Assembly: GCF_044324785.1 (NCBI RefSeq)
Contig: NZ_CP172127.1
From: Escherichia coli
Lineage (GTDB): Bacteria > Pseudomonadota > Gammaproteobacteria > Enterobacterales > Enterobacteriaceae
DNA length: 64,000 nucleotides
Direction: 5' to 3' (one strand)
A program made the translations under genes and the position numbers. Positions 1,190 to 19,821 of this stretch are shown here, in pieces (the first letter of the stretch is position 1; every line of letters begins with the position of its first letter). The notes beneath the pieces are model-generated. The model had not been told where the DNA came from, made no database searches, and worked only from the letters and a program-made list of their open reading frames with translations.

Positions 1190-1861
1190 ATGCAGTACCC
1201 GATTAACGAGATGTTCCAGACCCTGCAAGGTGAGGGTTACTTTACCGGCGTTCCCGCCATTTTTATTCGTTTACAGGGATGCCCGGTTGGCTGTGCCTGG
1301 TGCGACACCAAACACACCTGGGAAAAGCTTGAGGATCGGGAAGTCTCCCTTTTCAGCATTCTGGCGAAGACCAAAGAGAGTGATAAGTGGGGGGCGGCGA
1401 GCAGTGAAGACTTGCTGGCTGTCATTGGTCGCCAGGGATACACCGCGCGGCATGTGGTGATTACGGGTGGTGAGCCTTGCATTCATGATTTGCTGCCACT
1501 GACTGACCTGCTCGAAAAGAACGGTTTTAGCTGCCAGATCGAAACCAGTGGTACTCATGAGGTACGCTGCACACCGAATACCTGGGTTACCGTATCGCCA
1601 AAGCTGAACATGCGCGGCGGCTATGAAGTGTTGTCACAGGCACTGGAGCGAGCCAACGAAATCAAGCATCCAGTGGGACGCGTACGTGATATTGAAGCAC
1701 TGGATGAACTACTGGCAACACTGACCGATGATAAACCGCGAGTCATTGCGCTGCAGCCGATTAGCCAAAAGGATGATGCCACACGTTTGTGCATTGAAAC
1801 CTGCATTGCACGTAATTGGCGTTTGTCGATGCAAACACATAAATATTTAAATATTGCCTGA
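1190..1861 (+). CDS. queE: 7-carboxy-7-deazaguanine synthase (radical SAM)
   Basis: 223-aa ORF; N-terminus MQYPINEMFQTLQGEGYFTGVPAIFIRLQGCPVGCAWCDTK with CxxxCxxC-type radical-SAM cysteines; matches E. coli QueE/YgcF. Confidence 0.93.
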   Translation: MQYPINEMFQTLQGEGYFTGVPAIFIRLQGCPVGCAWCDTKHTWEKLEDREVSLFSILAKTKESDKWGAASSEDLLAVIGRQGYTARHVVITGGEPCIHDLLPLTDLLEKNGFSCQIETSGTHEVRCTPNTWVTVSPKLNMRGGYEVLSQALERANEIKHPVGRVRDIEALDELLATLTDDKPRVIALQPISQKDDATRLCIETCIARNWRLSMQTHKYLNIA

Positions 1862-2039
1862 TTAAACATTTATAAGCGTTATAAATGGGTGGGACCTGTA
1901 AAGACTTCTACTCATTTATATTCTTTGTCGCCTCTGAAAAACCTCCATTTTGCCCATCCTGGGCTAATCATTATCATTCTCTACAAATTCTATGGCGTTA
2001 ATTTTTCGTTGGAGTGAAAATTATTGCGGTGAAATTTGG

Positions 2040-2199
2040 TAGATTTTAGTTTGAATAGAGTTATTTTAAATATTTATCTTTTTAATCAATGGATTAAATG
2101 CTCTTTAACATAATGGATGTGTTGTTTGTGTGATCCTGTAAAGTTGGTAGATTGTGACTGGCTTAAAAAATCATTAATTAATAATAGGTTATGTTTAGA
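2040..2199 (+). other. AT-rich CRISPR leader
   Basis: AT-rich block immediately upstream of first repeat; shares the motif gttggtagattgt with the leader of the cas-adjacent array at 28716..28811. Confidence 0.7.
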
Positions 2200-2777
2200 G
2201 TGTTCCCCGCGCCAGCGGGGATAAACCGGGCGTTTCATGCTCATTGTTACCAACCCGCCAGTGTTCCCCGCGCCAGCGGGGATAAACCGCCGATGATCGG
2301 GCTCGGCATTTCGTCGAGGGGGTGTTCCCCGCGCCAGCGGGGATAAACCGGCTTGCAGCAGCTGCGCCAACGTCTGAATATGGTGTTCCCCGCGCCAGCG
2401 GGGATAAACCGATGGTGAGTGGTTGCATATGTGCCTGGCTATCGTGTTCCCCGCGCCAGCGGGGATAAACCGAGGCTATCTATCAGCCATTCTTCATCTA
2501 CTGAGTGTTCCCCGCGCCAGCGGGGATAAACCGGTCTGCTCGTGAGTCCGCGGCGCGAATTGCCGGTGTTCCCCGCGCCAGCGGGGATAAACCGCGAAGC
2601 TCCTTCCGTTGATTACCAAAATGTTGGTGTTCCCCGCGCCAGCGGGGATAAACCGACCGCCCGAACGGCAAAGGGGGCTTCTGGAAGGAGTTCCCCACGT
2701 CAGCGGGGATAAACCGGACACAGAGCGCCGCTATAGCGCCTATGCCAAGAGTTCCCCGCACCAGCGGGAATAAACCA
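2200..2777 (+). CRISPR. Type I-E CRISPR array, 10 repeats / 9 spacers (E. coli CRISPR II locus between queE and ygcE)
   Basis: 29-nt repeat GTGTTCCCCGCGCCAGCGGGGATAAACCG at exact 61-nt period (2200, 2261, ... 2749); 32-nt unique spacers; last two repeats degenerate (GAGTTCCCCACGTCAGCGGGGATAAACCG, GAGTTCCCCGCACCAGCGGGAATAAACCA), marking the leader-distal end. Confidence 0.97.
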
Positions 2778-3231
2778 CCATATAACCCGTTATCTCTTTC
2801 TCAAGTTTTTATATTAGCAGTACTCGTATTAAGCAACATATCCACGTAACACCTCATGTTCAAAATAGTTCTCCATGCCAGAGAAGTTCACAATTATCGA
2901 TACAAAAAATTAAATTTAATCAAAGTGTTATTTGTATGATTCTTAAATCGTTAAGAAATTTTAATCTATTGTTTTTTTAATATTGAATTAATGCCTGTTA
3001 ATTTTTTCTTTAGAATAACAGTGTATTTTTTAAGCTTGTTATTCATTGATTAAGTAATAAATCTGGAAGTTTGTCTTTGTTTTGAGGCTAATGAGTGGTT
3101 TTACATAACCGCCTCTATAGGCTGTTGATGAATAGTTCTTATGAATAAAGATATCCAGTTCATACTTTAAATGAAAATTGATAAAGTACGGTTTGCGTTG
3201 TCTTTTATTCTAAGGACATCGAGTGTAGTTA

Positions 3232-3370
3232 ATATTCCTTGTAACAACAGGGATAAACCGAACTAGTTAAAGTTTTTATTATGTTCCCTGCATCAGCGGG
3301 GATAAACCGGACTTGTTATCATTTTTTAAGTTGTCGAACTTATGTTCCCCGCGTCAGCGGGGATAACCAT
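3232..3370 (+). CRISPR. Decayed mini CRISPR array (3 degenerate repeats)
   Basis: Repeat-like units at 3232-3260 (only 3' half conserved), 3281-3309 (ATGTTCCCTGCATCAGCGGGGATAAACCG) and 3342-3370 (ATGTTCCCCGCGTCAGCGGGGATAACCAT); spacers of 20 and 32 nt; preceded by about 450 bp of AT-rich sequence. Confidence 0.75.
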
Positions 3371-3415
3371 TCAGGTATGTTCAGGCCGGGCAGTTTCCCG
3401 CCCGGTCTTCCTCAC

Positions 3416-4894
3416 TTACGCATTCGACCAGCTCTGGATCGAATCCGCATTCCCCAATTCCCCATGCATCACTTCATACGATTTTTTCAGGATCACATCA
3501 GTGTGCTTGGTTAGGTCTTTGAAAATGCCTTTATTCATCGCGTCGTAGCGTTTGGCGTTGCTCTCAACAGGCATAAAGATATCTTTCACGCGAACCATTT
3601 TGTCGACAGCCGTTGCGTAATCCGGGTATAGCCCCAGACCTACCGCCGTATTAATCGCTGCCCCCAGGCTTGCACAACCATTAATGGCGTTACGGCGTGC
3701 CGGAAGGTTGAACACGTCGGCAAAAATCTGCATAAACAGATCGCTGTTCGAACCGCCGCCAGTAATGATCACATGCTTTGCAAAGTGATTCATTTCATTA
3801 CACATATTGTCGTAATTGTTCTTCAGCGTCAGCGCCACGCTTTCCAGTATCGAACGATATATCCATGCGTAATCCATGCTGGAATCAAAGCCGATCATAA
3901 TCCCGCGTTTGTACGGTTCCCACGGATTGGTCAGCCAGTCCAGCACCGTCATCAGACCATTACAGCCAGGCGGCACACAAGACGCTTTTTTGTTGAGCAA
4001 ATCTTCCGGTGAAAGATCCTGTGCTTTGGCATCCTGAATTAACGACTCGCCTAACATGTCGCGCAGCCAGCTCACTGTCCACATGCCTTTGCGGATACCG
4101 TAACCTTCATACAGCAATGTTTGCGGAATAGAAGACATAATCGGCCAGTACGCTACCGGATCTTTCGGCAGTGCTTTGCCGTTCATCATCAACGCGATGT
4201 AAGTGCCAAGAGAAATTACCGCAGTTTCATCATCCAGTAACCCGGCTCCCAGTGCTTCTACCGGTTTATCACTGGTGGTACAAACAACCGGCAGCCCAGC
4301 CGGGAAATGTGTCGCCAGCGCGGCTTGAGGAGTGATATGCCCAAGAACAGTGCCCGGCATTTGCACATCAAACAGCATATGACGGGGGATATTAAACTTA
4401 TCCATTACCGCAGCCTCTTCGCTCCATGCCCAGGTCTTATAATCCACCGGCCACTGACCAAAATAGTTGGCGATATTGTCTTTAAACTCGCCGGTTAAGC
4501 GATGCGTCAGATAACCCGAAAAAGAGGTGACATATGCCACGTCAGGATTCGTATGTTCGTAAGGGCGTGTAACGCGTGCATCCTGCCAGCTGATCAACGG
4601 TGCAGCTGGCGTGCCATCGGCTTTCAATAACGCACGGCAGCAACGGATGGATCCCAGACCAATACCGACAATATCGTCTTTATTCCCGGCAAACTGACTC
4701 ATCAAATCGTGACCGGCAAAACATAATGATGCCCATAAATCGTCGTCAGGATGTTCTGCAGTATCGGCATCTGGCGTGTGCATCGGCTGCAATAAACCTT
4801 TGCCTTCGCAAACCACGTTACCTTCCAGATCGTACATCACCACTTTTGTGCTCTGACTTCCACCATCAATCCCTATGATGTATTTCTTCGACAT
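3416..4894 (-). CDS. ygcE: FGGY-family carbohydrate kinase
   Basis: 492-aa ORF; N-terminal MSKKYIIGIDGGSQSTKVVMYD typical of the sugar-kinase ATPase fold; matches E. coli YgcE. Confidence 0.9.
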   Translation of the reverse strand: MSKKYIIGIDGGSQSTKVVMYDLEGNVVCEGKGLLQPMHTPDADTAEHPDDDLWASLCFAGHDLMSQFAGNKDDIVGIGLGSIRCCRALLKADGTPAAPLISWQDARVTRPYEHTNPDVAYVTSFSGYLTHRLTGEFKDNIANYFGQWPVDYKTWAWSEEAAVMDKFNIPRHMLFDVQMPGTVLGHITPQAALATHFPAGLPVVCTTSDKPVEALGAGLLDDETAVISLGTYIALMMNGKALPKDPVAYWPIMSSIPQTLLYEGYGIRKGMWTVSWLRDMLGESLIQDAKAQDLSPEDLLNKKASCVPPGCNGLMTVLDWLTNPWEPYKRGIMIGFDSSMDYAWIYRSILESVALTLKNNYDNMCNEMNHFAKHVIITGGGSNSDLFMQIFADVFNLPARRNAINGCASLGAAINTAVGLGLYPDYATAVDKMVRVKDIFMPVESNAKRYDAMNKGIFKDLTKHTDVILKKSYEVMHGELGNADSIQSWSNA

Positions 4895-6516: not shown

Positions 6517-7302
6517 ATGTCAATCGAATCTCTCAATGCGTTCTCAATGGATTTTTTCTCCCTGAAAGGTAAAACCGCTATTGTTACCGGCGGGAATAGC
6601 GGTTTAGGCCAGGCATTTGCCATGGCGCTGGCCAAAGCAGGCGCAAATATCTTTATTCCAAGCTTCGTTAAAGATAACGGCGAAACAAAGGAAATGATTG
6701 AAAAACAGGGTGTTGAAGTTGACTTTATGCAGGTGGATATCACCGCAAAAGGCGCGCCGCAGAAGATAATCGCCGCCTGTTGCGAACGTTTCGGTACCGT
6801 CGATATTCTGGTTAACAATGCCGGTATTTGTAAGCTGAATAAGGTGCTGGACTTCGGTCGTGCCGACTGGGATCCAATGATTGATGTGAACCTGACCGCC
6901 GCATTCGAGTTAAGCTATGAAGCTGCAAAAATTATGATCCCGCAGAAAAGCGGTAAAATCATTAATATCTGTTCATTATTCTCTTACTTAGGTGGACAAT
7001 GGTCACCTGCATATTCTGCCACTAAACATGCTCTTGCCGGATTCACCAAAGCTTATTGTGATGAACTAGGTCAATATAATATTCAGGTAAATGGTATTGC
7101 CCCTGGCTATTATGCAACAGATATTACGCTGGCGACACGCAGTAATCCAGAAACCAATCAGCGCGTTCTTGATCATATTCCGGCAAACCGTTGGGGCGAT
7201 ACTCAGGATTTAATGGGCGCAGCCGTATTCCTCGCAAGTCCGGCTTCAAATTATGTTAACGGGCATTTATTAGTGGTCGATGGCGGTTATTTAGTGCGCT
7301 AA
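6517..7302 (+). CDS. ygcW: Short-chain dehydrogenase/reductase (KduD/IdnO-like)
   Basis: 261 aa from MSIESLNAF; TGGNSGLGQA Rossmann glycine motif; matches E. coli YgcW; track ORF begins upstream at 6442. Confidence 0.88.
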   Translation: MSIESLNAFSMDFFSLKGKTAIVTGGNSGLGQAFAMALAKAGANIFIPSFVKDNGETKEMIEKQGVEVDFMQVDITAKGAPQKIIAACCERFGTVDILVNNAGICKLNKVLDFGRADWDPMIDVNLTAAFELSYEAAKIMIPQKSGKIINICSLFSYLGGQWSPAYSATKHALAGFTKAYCDELGQYNIQVNGIAPGYYATDITLATRSNPETNQRVLDHIPANRWGDTQDLMGAAVFLASPASNYVNGHLLVVDGGYLVR

Positions 7303-19627: not shown

Positions 19628-19821
19628 CCACCACGCGGGGGTAAAACCCCGCGTACTGAATTGTGATGGTTTGGTCTCCTGCACCCTTTTTTAATTTATA
19701 TTGTTTATGTGAATATTATGCCTATGTTTATTATTCATATATATTACGGATGAAAATTATTTGATTATTCATAATGTAAATATTTTATTGAACGATATAT
19801 ATCACAGATAATTTTTAATAT

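What the first reader, a model, noticed from the sequence alone, without database searches (positions are those of the whole stretch)
2778..3370. Eroded second array with a truncated 20-nt spacer
Downstream of the 10-repeat array, about 450 bp of AT-rich sequence leads to three degenerate repeats. The first unit retains only its 3' half and the first spacer is 20 nt instead of 32, indicating internal deletion. The AT-rich block lacks the leader motif of the two intact arrays.
Basis: seen in the sequence. Interest (0 to 1): 0.25.

Follow-up and report, generated by a model that had tools for sequence, protein, structure and literature searches.

The report
Known frozen CRISPR2.2 mini-array of E. 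coli
The flagged stretch is CRISPR2.2, the already described leaderless three-repeat remnant next to the second CRISPR array of E. coli, so the finding is real but ordinary; the only twist is that the "eroded" remnant is almost invariant across thousands of genomes.

Summary
After the 10-repeat array (2200-2777) comes 454 bp of 28% G+C DNA, then three degenerate type I-E repeats: R1 3232-3260, R2 3281-3309 and R3 3342-3370. They enclose a 20-nt spacer and a 32-nt spacer. The locus lies between queE (ygcF) and ygcE.

- R1 is not a half repeat. It is full length (20/29 to the consensus) and keeps the 7-bp stem and tetraloop through two compensatory pairs.
- No allele with a 32-nt first spacer was found in about 4,000 E. 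coli genomes or 89 metagenome contigs, so the deletion is old and only inferred.

New details:
- R3 is the ancestral terminal repeat of the locus, shared with E. albertii and E. whittamii.
- The first ~117 nt of the AT-rich block may hold two further eroded units.
- A contig outside sampled E. coli diversity carries the block plus R1-S2-R3.
- CRISPR2.2 varies far less than its flanks. Spacer 2 is identical in 4048 of 4060 genomes.

Already known; low interest. A CreR-like regulatory role is not excluded but no target was found.

The parts
1190..1861 (+). queE (ygcF), the left flanking gene of the CRISPR-II locus
   Evidence: NCBIfam TIGR04322 QueE, E = 1e-110. Annotated queE in homologous RefSeq loci.
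1862..2199 (+). Leader 2.3 of the active array
   Evidence: AT-rich (G+C 0.30). Contains GTTGGTAGATTGT at 2143-2155, shared with leader 2.1 at 28755-28767. Homologous to leader 2.1 (z = 8.2).
2200..2777 (+). CRISPR2.3: 10 repeats and 9 spacers; the last two repeats are degenerate (26/29 and 25/29)
   Evidence: Its terminal spacers differ between strains.
2778..3231 (.). 454-bp AT-rich block between CRISPR2.3 and CRISPR2.2
   Evidence: G+C 0.284. No leader homology. No homologue in phages, plasmids or 80 queE loci of other Enterobacteriaceae. Present at 65-80% identity in the divergent contig L156.
2778..2810 (+). Candidate eroded spacer (Sx) continuing CRISPR2.3
   Evidence: Aligns by position to a 33-nt spacer that follows an intact repeat in L156.
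2811..2839 (+). Candidate eroded repeat R11*
   Evidence: Positional counterpart of a still recognisable degenerate repeat, CGTTCCCTGTATCAGCAATAAACA, in L156. Not recognisable on its own (about 11/29 by eye).
2866..2894 (+). Candidate eroded repeat R12* (TAGTTCTCCATGCCAGAGAAGTTCACAAT)
   Evidence: 17/29 to the repeat, lying 117 nt (2 x 61 - 5) after R10. Weak on its own.
3232..3260 (+). CRISPR2.2 repeat R1: full length, 5' part heavily substituted, 3' ATAAACCG intact
   Evidence: 20/29 to the consensus and 12/18 to R2 in the 5' half. Same stem-loop register, -7.9 kcal/mol. 29/29 identical between the K-12 type and L156.
3261..3280 (+). Spacer S1, 20 nt (AACTAGTTAAAGTTTTTATT)
   Evidence: Invariant in 14 strains. 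Identical in 75 of the 78 metagenome contigs that carry an S1.
3281..3309 (+). CRISPR2.2 repeat R2 (25/29); stem kept with one U-G wobble
3310..3341 (+). Spacer S2, 32 nt (GACTTGTTATCATTTTTTAAGTTGTCGAACTT)
   Evidence: 100% identical in 4048 of the 4060 E. coli genomes that hold it. 30/32 in L156. No protospacer in phages or plasmids.
3342..3370 (+). CRISPR2.2 repeat R3 (24/29; 3' end degenerate, ATAACCAT): the ancestral terminal repeat of the locus
   Evidence: The same terminal repeat ends the single arrays of E. coli AST240 and FDAARGOS_1299, E. albertii and E. whittamii.
3383..3408 (.). G+C-rich hairpin between R3 and the ygcE stop codon (likely ygcE terminator; could also stop + strand read-through)
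   Evidence: Predicted 9-bp stem in the centroid fold. Position relative to ORF 3416-4894. Function is inferred.
3416..4894 (-). ygcE (FGGY-family sugar kinase), the right flanking gene
   Evidence: Annotated ygcE in homologous RefSeq loci. FGGY-family hits below the curated cut-offs.

Best explanation
This is CRISPR2.2, the leaderless three-repeat, two-spacer mini-array at the trailer end of the E. coli CRISPR-II locus (queE/ygcF to ygcE). It belongs to the type I-E system whose cas genes lie 16 kb away in the same window.

Shown:
- The three units are homologous to I-E repeats.
- R3 is the ancestral terminal repeat of the locus.
- The array has no recognisable leader and shows no spacer turnover. 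It changes only by loss of whole units, or of the whole block, through repeat-repeat recombination.

Inferred:
- Without a leader, and with a degenerate leader-proximal repeat, Cas1-Cas2 cannot add spacers, so the array is frozen.
- The 20-nt spacer is secondary: a 12-nt loss that predates E. coli diversification, possibly in a duplicate of the S2 unit.
- Any transcription would be read-through from the CRISPR2.3 leader promoter across the 454-bp block.
- All three repeats keep the Cas6e stem-loop, and R1 and R2 keep the ATAAACCG 5' handle, so such a transcript could in principle be processed into a 61-nt crRNA (S2) and a 49-nt crRNA (S1).
For: - Repeat homology and register.
- Flanking genes and a complete I-E cas set.
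- Prevalence: at least 80% of the region is present in 4116 of 5426 complete E. coli genomes.
- Conservation: the 151-bp core matches in 4432 genomes at no less than 95% identity, 4036 of them over at least 80% of its length; the lowest identity among sampled full-length matches was 97.4%. S2 is identical in 4048 of 4060 genomes.
- No leader motif or homology.
- No promoter-like excess and no terminator-like site across 1800-3500.
- Hairpins retained, alone and in context.
- Recombinational variants observed: single arrays ending in an R3-type hybrid repeat; R1-S1-R hybrid (strain 121, and four or five metagenome contigs); R1-S2-R3 (L155).
- R3-type terminal repeat in E. albertii and E. whittamii.
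Against: - A neutral relic should vary at least as much as its flanks, but it varies much less. In nine strains, 5 of 139 sites segregate, against 56 of 338 in the flanks (Fisher p = 4e-5) and 68 of 219 four-fold sites of ygcE.
- Between E. coli and the divergent contig L156, by my count, R1+S2+R3 differ at about 4 of 91 positions, while the block is only 65-80% identical.
- The pattern of what is kept matches what crRNA maturation would need: R1 keeps its hairpin and 5' handle, and R3 keeps its hairpin only. This hints at maintained function rather than pure decay.
- Transcription was not tested.
Confidence: 0.85

Rival explanations
1. CRISPR2.2 is a selectively maintained regulatory mini-CRISPR of the CreA/CreR type. 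R1 supplies only a Cas6e site and the 5' handle, and R3 supplies only the 3' hairpin. The conserved S2 (and the 20-nt S1, which is 32 minus 2 x 6 nt) would guide Cascade to a partially complementary chromosomal site without cleavage.
For: - Strong conservation relative to the flanks, within E. coli and against L156.
- All five stem substitutions in R1 preserve pairing.
- The degeneration pattern matches that described for creR, where the first pseudo-repeat keeps the 5'-handle nucleotides and the second keeps the 3' handle (bioRxiv 10.1101/2023.03.10.532045).
- L156 carries exactly such a two-repeat unit, R1-S2-R3.
- A paper entitled 'Altered stoichiometry Escherichia coli Cascade complexes with shortened CRISPR RNA spacers are capable of interference and primed adaptation' exists (PMC5159557; title and abstract only).
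Against: - No PAM-flanked, seed-anchored match of S1 or S2 beyond 8-9 nt anywhere in the 64-kb window, which includes the whole cas locus; hit counts are at chance level.
- No second long match in E. coli genomes, phages or plasmids.
- No promoter signal above shuffles.
- The array lies 16 kb from the cas genes, not in a cas intergenic region.
- It is absent from genomes with single arrays, from E. albertii and from E. whittamii, and single units are lost in several percent of contigs.
- Stem preservation in R1 has p about 0.16 under a transition-only model.
Confidence: 0.15
2. The block is what is left of CRISPR2.2's own leader. Two tandem arrays each once had a leader, and the second leader and its first repeat decayed.
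For: - CRISPR2.3 has its own conserved degenerate terminal repeat, R10, and apparently two more eroded units.
- What remains of the block (2895-3231, 337 bp) is as long as leader 2.3 (338 bp) and similarly AT-rich.
- Its 3' 186 bp are the better conserved part.
Against: No detectable homology to leader 2.3 or 2.1 (z about 1, against 8.2 for the control). No GTTGGTAGATTGT motif. The BLAST fragments are not colinear.
Confidence: 0.25
3. A single ancestral array was split by insertion of foreign AT-rich DNA.
For: - The literature describes it this way (PMC10910852).
- E. albertii, E. whittamii and some E. coli carry one uninterrupted array ending in R3.
- The block occupies exactly the place of a spacer between R10 and R1.
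Against: - The block has no homologue elsewhere: not in plasmids or phages, and at most two places per E. coli genome, with a median of one.
- Its first ~117 nt look like decayed array units.
- It is present in the divergent lineage L156.
- Single arrays are readily explained by repeat-repeat deletion. The hybrid terminal repeat GAGTT...GTCAGCGGGGATAACCAT combines a 2.3-type 5' end with an R3 3' end.
Confidence: 0.15
4. The conserved sequence is a small protein gene (31-aa ORF, 3171-3266) that overlaps R1.
For: The start codon is ATG or GTG in all strains, and 6 of 10 polymorphic sites fall on codon position 3.
Against: Binomial p = 0.077. No Shine-Dalgarno sequence is visible upstream (by eye). 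The ORF ends inside S1, so it cannot explain conservation of R2, S2 and R3. Nothing is annotated there in K-12 or other RefSeq records.
Confidence: 0.03

Closest known systems
CRISPR2.2 of the E. coli CRISPR-II locus (nomenclature of Diez-Villasenor et al. 2010, as cited in PMC4489801, PMC3903273 and PMC3737337)
   Same: Position between ygcE and ygcF/queE. About 0.5 kb downstream of CRISPR2.3. Three type-2 (I-E) repeats and two invariable spacers. No leader. Replaced by a single 'CRISPR2.2-3' array in some strains.
   Different: Nothing of substance; this is that element. Points added here, which I did not find in the open-access papers I could read:
- R1 is full length and keeps its hairpin.
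- S1 resembles S2.
- R3 is the ancestral terminus shared with E. albertii and E. whittamii.
- The start of the AT-rich block may hold eroded units.
- Conservation is quantified across about 4,000 genomes.
Terminal degenerate 'anchor' repeat plus conserved last spacer of CRISPR2.1 (Almendros et al. 2014, PMC3903273)
   Same: A degenerate trailer-end repeat and an adjoining spacer conserved across strains regardless of the rest of the array. [quoted passage not shown]
   Different: CRISPR2.2 has three repeats and is separated from the active array by 454 bp. The anchor idea has not been tested for either locus.
CreA/CreR regulatory mini-CRISPRs and cr-like RNA mini-arrays (bioRxiv 10.1101/2023.03.10.532045; PMC10120712; PMC9458426)
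   Same: A small, conserved array of degenerate repeats. The first repeat keeps the 5'-handle nucleotides and the last keeps the 3' hairpin. There is no leader or IHF site and no spacer turnover.
   Different: Those elements sit in cas intergenic regions, for example between cas3 and cas8e. Their spacer matches a PAM-flanked site in a nearby promoter over 10-15 nt or more. CRISPR2.2 is 16 kb from the cas genes and no such target was found in the window.
Orphan or decaying CRISPR arrays in general
   Same: No adjacent cas genes, degenerate repeats, no acquisition.
   Different: A complete cognate I-E cas operon is present in the same genome region, and the sequence is not currently decaying.

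Membership tests
Type I-E CRISPR array (E. coli repeat cluster 2) | Direct repeats of about 29 nt homologous to GTGTTCCCCGCGCCAGCGGGGATAAACCG | tested here: met
   R1 20/29, R2 25/29, R3 24/29. The background maximum in the window is 18/29.
Type I-E CRISPR array (E. coli repeat cluster 2) | Repeat forms the 7-bp stem and tetraloop recognised by Cas6e | tested here: met
   Identical dot-bracket register for the consensus, R1, R2 and R3 (-15.2, -7.9, -12.1 and -15.1 kcal/mol). The hairpins are also predicted in context. Binding by Cas6e was not tested.
Type I-E CRISPR array (E. coli repeat cluster 2) | Spacers of uniform 32-33 nt | tested here: not met
   S2 is 32 nt but S1 is 20 nt. The 20-nt length is fixed in the species.
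Type I-E CRISPR array (E. coli repeat cluster 2) | AT-rich leader with conserved elements abutting the first repeat | tested here: not met
   AT-rich DNA is present, but it has no GTTGGTAGATTGT motif and no homology to either leader (z about 1, against 8.2 for the control).
Type I-E CRISPR array (E. coli repeat cluster 2) | Strain-to-strain spacer turnover at the leader end | tested here: not met
   The same two spacers are found in about 4,000 genomes. CRISPR2.3 spacers, by contrast, differ between the same strains.
Type I-E CRISPR array (E. coli repeat cluster 2) | Cognate cas genes in the genome | tested here: met
   Cas3, Cse1, Cse2, Cas5e, Cas1e and Cas2e found at 19822-28712.
Type I-E CRISPR array (E. 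coli repeat cluster 2) | Transcribed and processed into crRNA | not testable with these tools
   Only sequence-level prerequisites could be checked.
E. coli CRISPR2.2 | Located between ygcE and ygcF (queE), about 0.5 kb from CRISPR2.3 on the ygcE side | tested here: met
   queE 1190-1861, CRISPR2.3 2200-2777, a 454-bp gap, CRISPR2.2 3232-3370, ygcE 3416-4894. Same layout in RefSeq loci.
E. coli CRISPR2.2 | Three repeats and two invariable spacers | tested here: met
   Description in PMC4489801.
CreA/CreR-type regulatory mini-CRISPR | Degenerate repeats in which the first keeps the 5'-handle nucleotides and the last keeps the 3'-handle hairpin | tested here: met
   The 3' 11 nt of R1 are intact while its 5' part is substituted. 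The stem-loop of R3 is intact while its 3' end is degenerate. Criterion taken.
CreA/CreR-type regulatory mini-CRISPR | Sits within or beside the cas operon | tested here: not met
   16.4 kb separate R3 (3370) from the cas3 start (19822).
CreA/CreR-type regulatory mini-CRISPR | Spacer partially complementary (at least 10-15 nt from the seed, PAM-flanked) to a promoter it represses | tested here: not met
   Only bare 8-9-nt seed matches at chance frequency in the 64-kb window. The rest of the genome could not be scanned for short matches.
CreA/CreR-type regulatory mini-CRISPR | Own promoter, with expression of a cr-like RNA | tested here: inconclusive
   Four promoter-like sites against 3.7 expected across 1800-3500; none lies immediately upstream of R1. 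Expression is not testable here.

The most novel reading that the evidence does not exclude
CRISPR2.2 may not be a decaying relic but a selectively maintained cr-like RNA gene (CreR-like). Its degenerate first repeat and 3'-degenerate last repeat keep exactly what Cas6e and Cascade need. Its invariant 32-nt guide, and its 20-nt guide (32 minus 12 nt), would direct Cascade to an as yet unidentified, partially matching chromosomal site.
Probability: 0.15. Interest if true: 0.55.

Novelty: already known. Interest (0 to 1): 0.15.

Why it matters
As it stands, this matters little. It re-identifies a feature catalogued in 2010 and present in about three quarters of complete E. coli genomes.

It is useful for annotation, because RefSeq lists no feature under CRISPR2.2, and for anyone typing strains by CRISPR.

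The one point worth a specialist's attention is the contrast between heavy past degeneration and present near-invariance. Spacer 2 is identical in 99.7% of the 4060 genomes that hold it, beside highly polymorphic DNA. If that reflects function, E. coli would have a second kind of I-E guide RNA that has gone unstudied in the best-studied type I system.

Tried and rejected
- **Leader homology of the block.** BLAST fragments were not colinear and alignment scores were at shuffle level. Rejected. An IHF-consensus scan was uninformative, because it missed even the real leader 2.3.
- **The whole block as a fossil array.** No 61-nt autocorrelation (z = 0.41), no TRF hit, and weak repeat-like hits not in excess (9 against 5.4 +/- 2.2). 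Rejected for 2895-3231. Kept only for the first ~117 nt, on the strength of the L156 alignment.
- **Protospacers for S2.** Phages and plasmids gave only chance-level partial hits. The 100% 'plasmid' hits are mislabelled 4.8-Mb chromosomes.
- **Origin of the block.** No phage match; plasmid matches only in the same mislabelled chromosomes.
- **Rfam.** Nothing relevant.
- **Pre-deletion allele of S1.** None in the metagenome scan. The positive-control scan found 89 contigs; of the 80 retrieved, 76 carry a 20-nt spacer, one 21 nt and one 19 nt. The two 32-nt cases are R1 joined directly to S2.
- **Compensatory stem changes in R1 as proof of selection.** Under a G:C to A:T transition-only model, p is about 0.16. 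Not decisive.
- **31-aa ORF overlapping R1.** Codon-position bias p = 0.077 and no Shine-Dalgarno sequence. Set aside.
- **Original 2010 paper.** Not held in the library. Its content is cited second-hand from papers that cite it.

Full report
**What is there**

The window starts in ygcG (- strand). queE follows (1190-1861, +; NCBIfam QueE, E = 1e-110), then a 338-bp AT-rich leader (1862-2199) and a 10-repeat type I-E array (2200-2777). After that come 454 bp of 28% G+C DNA (2778-3231) and three degenerate repeats:

| Unit | Coordinates | Sequence or size | Match to consensus |
|---|---|---|---|
| R1 | 3232-3260 | ATATTCCTTGTAACAACAGGGATAAACCG | 20/29 |
| S1 | 3261-3280 | 20 nt | n/a |
| R2 | 3281-3309 | 29 nt | 25/29 |
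| S2 | 3310-3341 | 32 nt | n/a |
| R3 | 3342-3370 | 3' end degenerate (ATAACCAT) | 24/29 |

A G+C-rich hairpin (3383-3408) and the convergent ygcE gene (3416-4894, -) follow. Apart from the two arrays and one solitary repeat, no 29-mer in the 64-kb window exceeds 18/29 to the consensus. The three units are therefore real repeats, at the coordinates given. A complete I-E cas set (Cas3, Cse1, Cse2, Cas5e, Cas1e, Cas2e) and the second intact array (28812-29451) lie 16-26 kb further on.

**It is a known element**

The open-access literature names it precisely.
- CRISPR2.2 and CRISPR2.3 lie between ygcE and ygcF, "separated by 0.5 kb", with leaders only next to CRISPR2.1 and 2.3 (PMC3903273 and PMC3737337).

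At least 80% of the 753-bp region is present in 4116 of 5426 complete E. coli genomes. RefSeq lists no feature under the CRISPR2.2 match, and the K-12 MG1655 record annotates nothing between ygcE and queE.

- *R1 is not a half repeat.* Its 3' 11 nt are perfect. Its 5' 18 nt match R2 at 12/18, whereas 18-mers from the block average 4.4 and reach at most 9. It folds in exactly the canonical register (7-bp stem, tetraloop, -7.9 kcal/mol). Of its nine differences from the consensus, eight are G:C to A:T transitions. All five in the stem keep pairing: two C-G to U-A double changes and one U-G wobble. Under a transition-only null this has p of about 0.16, so it is suggestive and nothing more.
- *The 20-nt spacer.* From my own knowledge, Cas1-Cas2 measures about 33 bp, so a 20-nt spacer must be secondary. 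S1 aligns to S2 as a copy lacking 12 nt (p = 0.009 by shuffling, 0.018 against 20-mers of the block). R1 and R2 share derived states (T9, A12). This is compatible with S1-R2 being a truncated duplicate of the S2 unit.
- *No pre-deletion allele was found.* All 4432 genomes matching the 151-bp core do so at no less than 95% identity (4036 over at least 80% of its length); the lowest identity among sampled full-length matches was 97.4%. A metagenome scan for R1, then 21-45 nt, then R2, found nothing. In the control scan, 75 of the 78 contigs that carry an S1 have the identical 20-nt spacer.
- *The claim that the block lacks the leader motif is correct*.

**History of the locus**

- In Citrobacter, Klebsiella, Enterobacter and other genera, queE abuts ygcE with no CRISPR between them.
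- E. albertii has leader 2.3, two repeats, and a terminal repeat GGGTTCTCCGCGTCAGCGGGGATAACCAT. E. whittamii has the leader and only that terminal repeat.
- E. coli strains with a single "CRISPR2.2-3" array end in the same R3-type repeat. It carries a 2.3-type 5' end (GAGTT), as expected from recombination between a 2.3 repeat and R3.
- R3 is therefore the ancestral terminus of the locus.
- Smaller recombinational losses also occur. R1-S1-hybrid repeat is seen in strain 121 and in four or five metagenome contigs. R1-S2-R3 is seen in L155.

One metagenome contig, L156, is 92-94% identical to the window in coding DNA. Its best match to any of the 5426 E. coli genomes is 95.5%, so it lies outside sampled E. 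coli diversity. It nevertheless carries the AT-rich block (65-80% identity) followed by R1-S2-R3. The block and the mini-array therefore predate E. coli diversification. The genomes that lack them most simply lost them.

In L156 the sequence aligned to 2778-2839 is a 33-nt spacer plus a still recognisable degenerate repeat (CGTTCCCTGTATCAGCAATAAACA). Window 2866-2894 scores 17/29. The first ~117 nt of the "block" are thus probably two more decayed units of CRISPR2.3. The remaining 337 bp show no 61-nt periodicity and no repeat remnants above chance. They also have no homologue in phages or plasmids. Their origin (ex-leader, insertion or fully decayed array) stays open.

**Conservation**

| Sample | Region | Result |
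|---|---|---|
| 9 strains spanning the identity range | CRISPR2.2 | 5/139 segregating sites, pi 0.010; spacers 0/52 |
| | Flanks | 56/338 segregating sites (Fisher p = 4e-5) |
| | ygcE four-fold sites (8 strains) | 68/219 segregating sites, pi 0.13 |
| 38 metagenome contigs | S1, R2, S2, R3 | pi 0, 0, 0.007, 0.012 |
| | AT-rich block | pi 0.013-0.035 |
| | ygcE four-fold sites | pi 0.12 |
| Complete E. coli genomes | S2 | identical in 4048 of 4060 genomes |
| E. coli versus L156 (first figure is my count) | R1+S2+R3 | about 4 of 91 positions differ |
| | AT-rich block | 65-80% identical |

CRISPR2.3 spacers in the same strains differ completely, and one shared spacer carries a SNP.

Caveats:
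- ygcE is unusually polymorphic here, so it overstates the neutral level.
- The nine strains were chosen for spread.
- Some metagenome contigs are noisy.
- A localised sweep by recombination cannot be excluded.

Even so, the mini-array is not eroding now.

**How it most likely works**

*Shown:*
- It is a type I-E repeat-spacer remnant without a leader and without spacer turnover.
- It changes only by unit loss.

*Inferred:*
- It cannot acquire spacers.
- If it is transcribed at all, this is by read-through from the leader 2.3 promoter. No promoter-like excess and no terminator-like site were found across 1800-3500.
- Such a transcript could be cut by Cas6e, because all three hairpins form in context and R1 and R2 keep the ATAAACCG 5' handle.

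The main alternative is that it is kept for a purpose. Its pattern resembles CreA/CreR mini-CRISPRs, described for type I systems including I-E: the first repeat keeps the hairpin and 5' handle, and the last keeps only the hairpin. However, those elements sit in cas intergenic regions, and their spacer matches a PAM-flanked promoter site. Here the array is 16 kb from cas3. S1 and S2 have only chance-level 8-9-nt seed matches in the window and no second long match in E. coli genomes, phages or plasmids. I therefore do not file it as a Cre element, and give that reading about 15%.

**Verdict**

The feature is already known (CRISPR2.2). Interest is low (0.15). The residual curiosity is the strong sequence conservation of a supposedly vestigial array.

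Noticed in passing
window 22547-22575 (- strand), with hairpin 22526-22551: A solitary I-E repeat in inverted orientation (CTGTTCCCCGCGTCAGCGGGGATAAGCCC, 25/29) lies about 25 nt after the cas3 stop. It directly follows a G+C-rich hairpin, in the 414-bp cas3-cse1 intergenic region. The published survey PMC10120712 reports repeat-like sequences and regulatory mini-arrays enriched next to cas3 in I-E loci. I did not look for a second repeat or a target.
   Followed up: partly
window 3171-3266 (+): A 31-aa ORF (MKIDKVRFALSFILRTSSVVNIPCNNRDKPN) overlaps R1. Its start codon is ATG or GTG in all strains, and 6 of 10 polymorphic sites fall on codon position 3 (p = 0.077). No Shine-Dalgarno sequence is visible. 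Probably not a gene.
   Followed up: partly
window 3416-4894 (ygcE) and homologous loci L001-L011: ygcE is unusually polymorphic: four-fold-site pi is about 0.12-0.13, and the window's allele is only about 95-96% identical to most E. coli alleles. This suggests deep allelic classes or introgression in this neighbourhood.
   Followed up: no
L156 (metagenome contig Ga0209547_100011): This divergent Escherichia-like contig lacks the whole cas operon and CRISPR2.1 (window 19692-29523 missing). Its ygcE is truncated and joined to sequence matching window 14137 onward, a deletion of about 10 kb. It still keeps the AT-rich block and R1-S2-R3.
   Followed up: partly
L013 (GTDB E. coli representative SCPM-O-B-8794) 6670-6790; L005 2350-2510: Some genomes labelled E. 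coli have no CRISPR-II locus at all. In L013, queE and ygcE are separated by about 110 bp of unrelated sequence. In L005 (strain Z1323CEC0015), the genes next to ygcE are a porin and an aminoimidazole riboside kinase.
   Followed up: no
window 29484-29512 (+): A very degenerate terminal repeat of CRISPR2.1 (GAATTCCCCGCCCCTGCGGTAGAACTCGC, 17/29) follows the last good repeat. It probably corresponds to the conserved degenerate terminal ('anchor') repeat discussed in PMC3903273.
   Followed up: no
window 3327-3342 (inside spacer S2): S2 contains a small palindrome, AAGTT-GTCG-AACTT, which is predicted to form a hairpin in the RNA fold. Its significance is unknown.
   Followed up: no
window 2867-3026: The middle of the AT-rich block is the most variable part of the region (pi 0.07-0.12 in nine strains) and shows mosaic haplotypes, for example CATGCCAGAG versus CATATATGAG at 2873-2882.
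   Followed up: no
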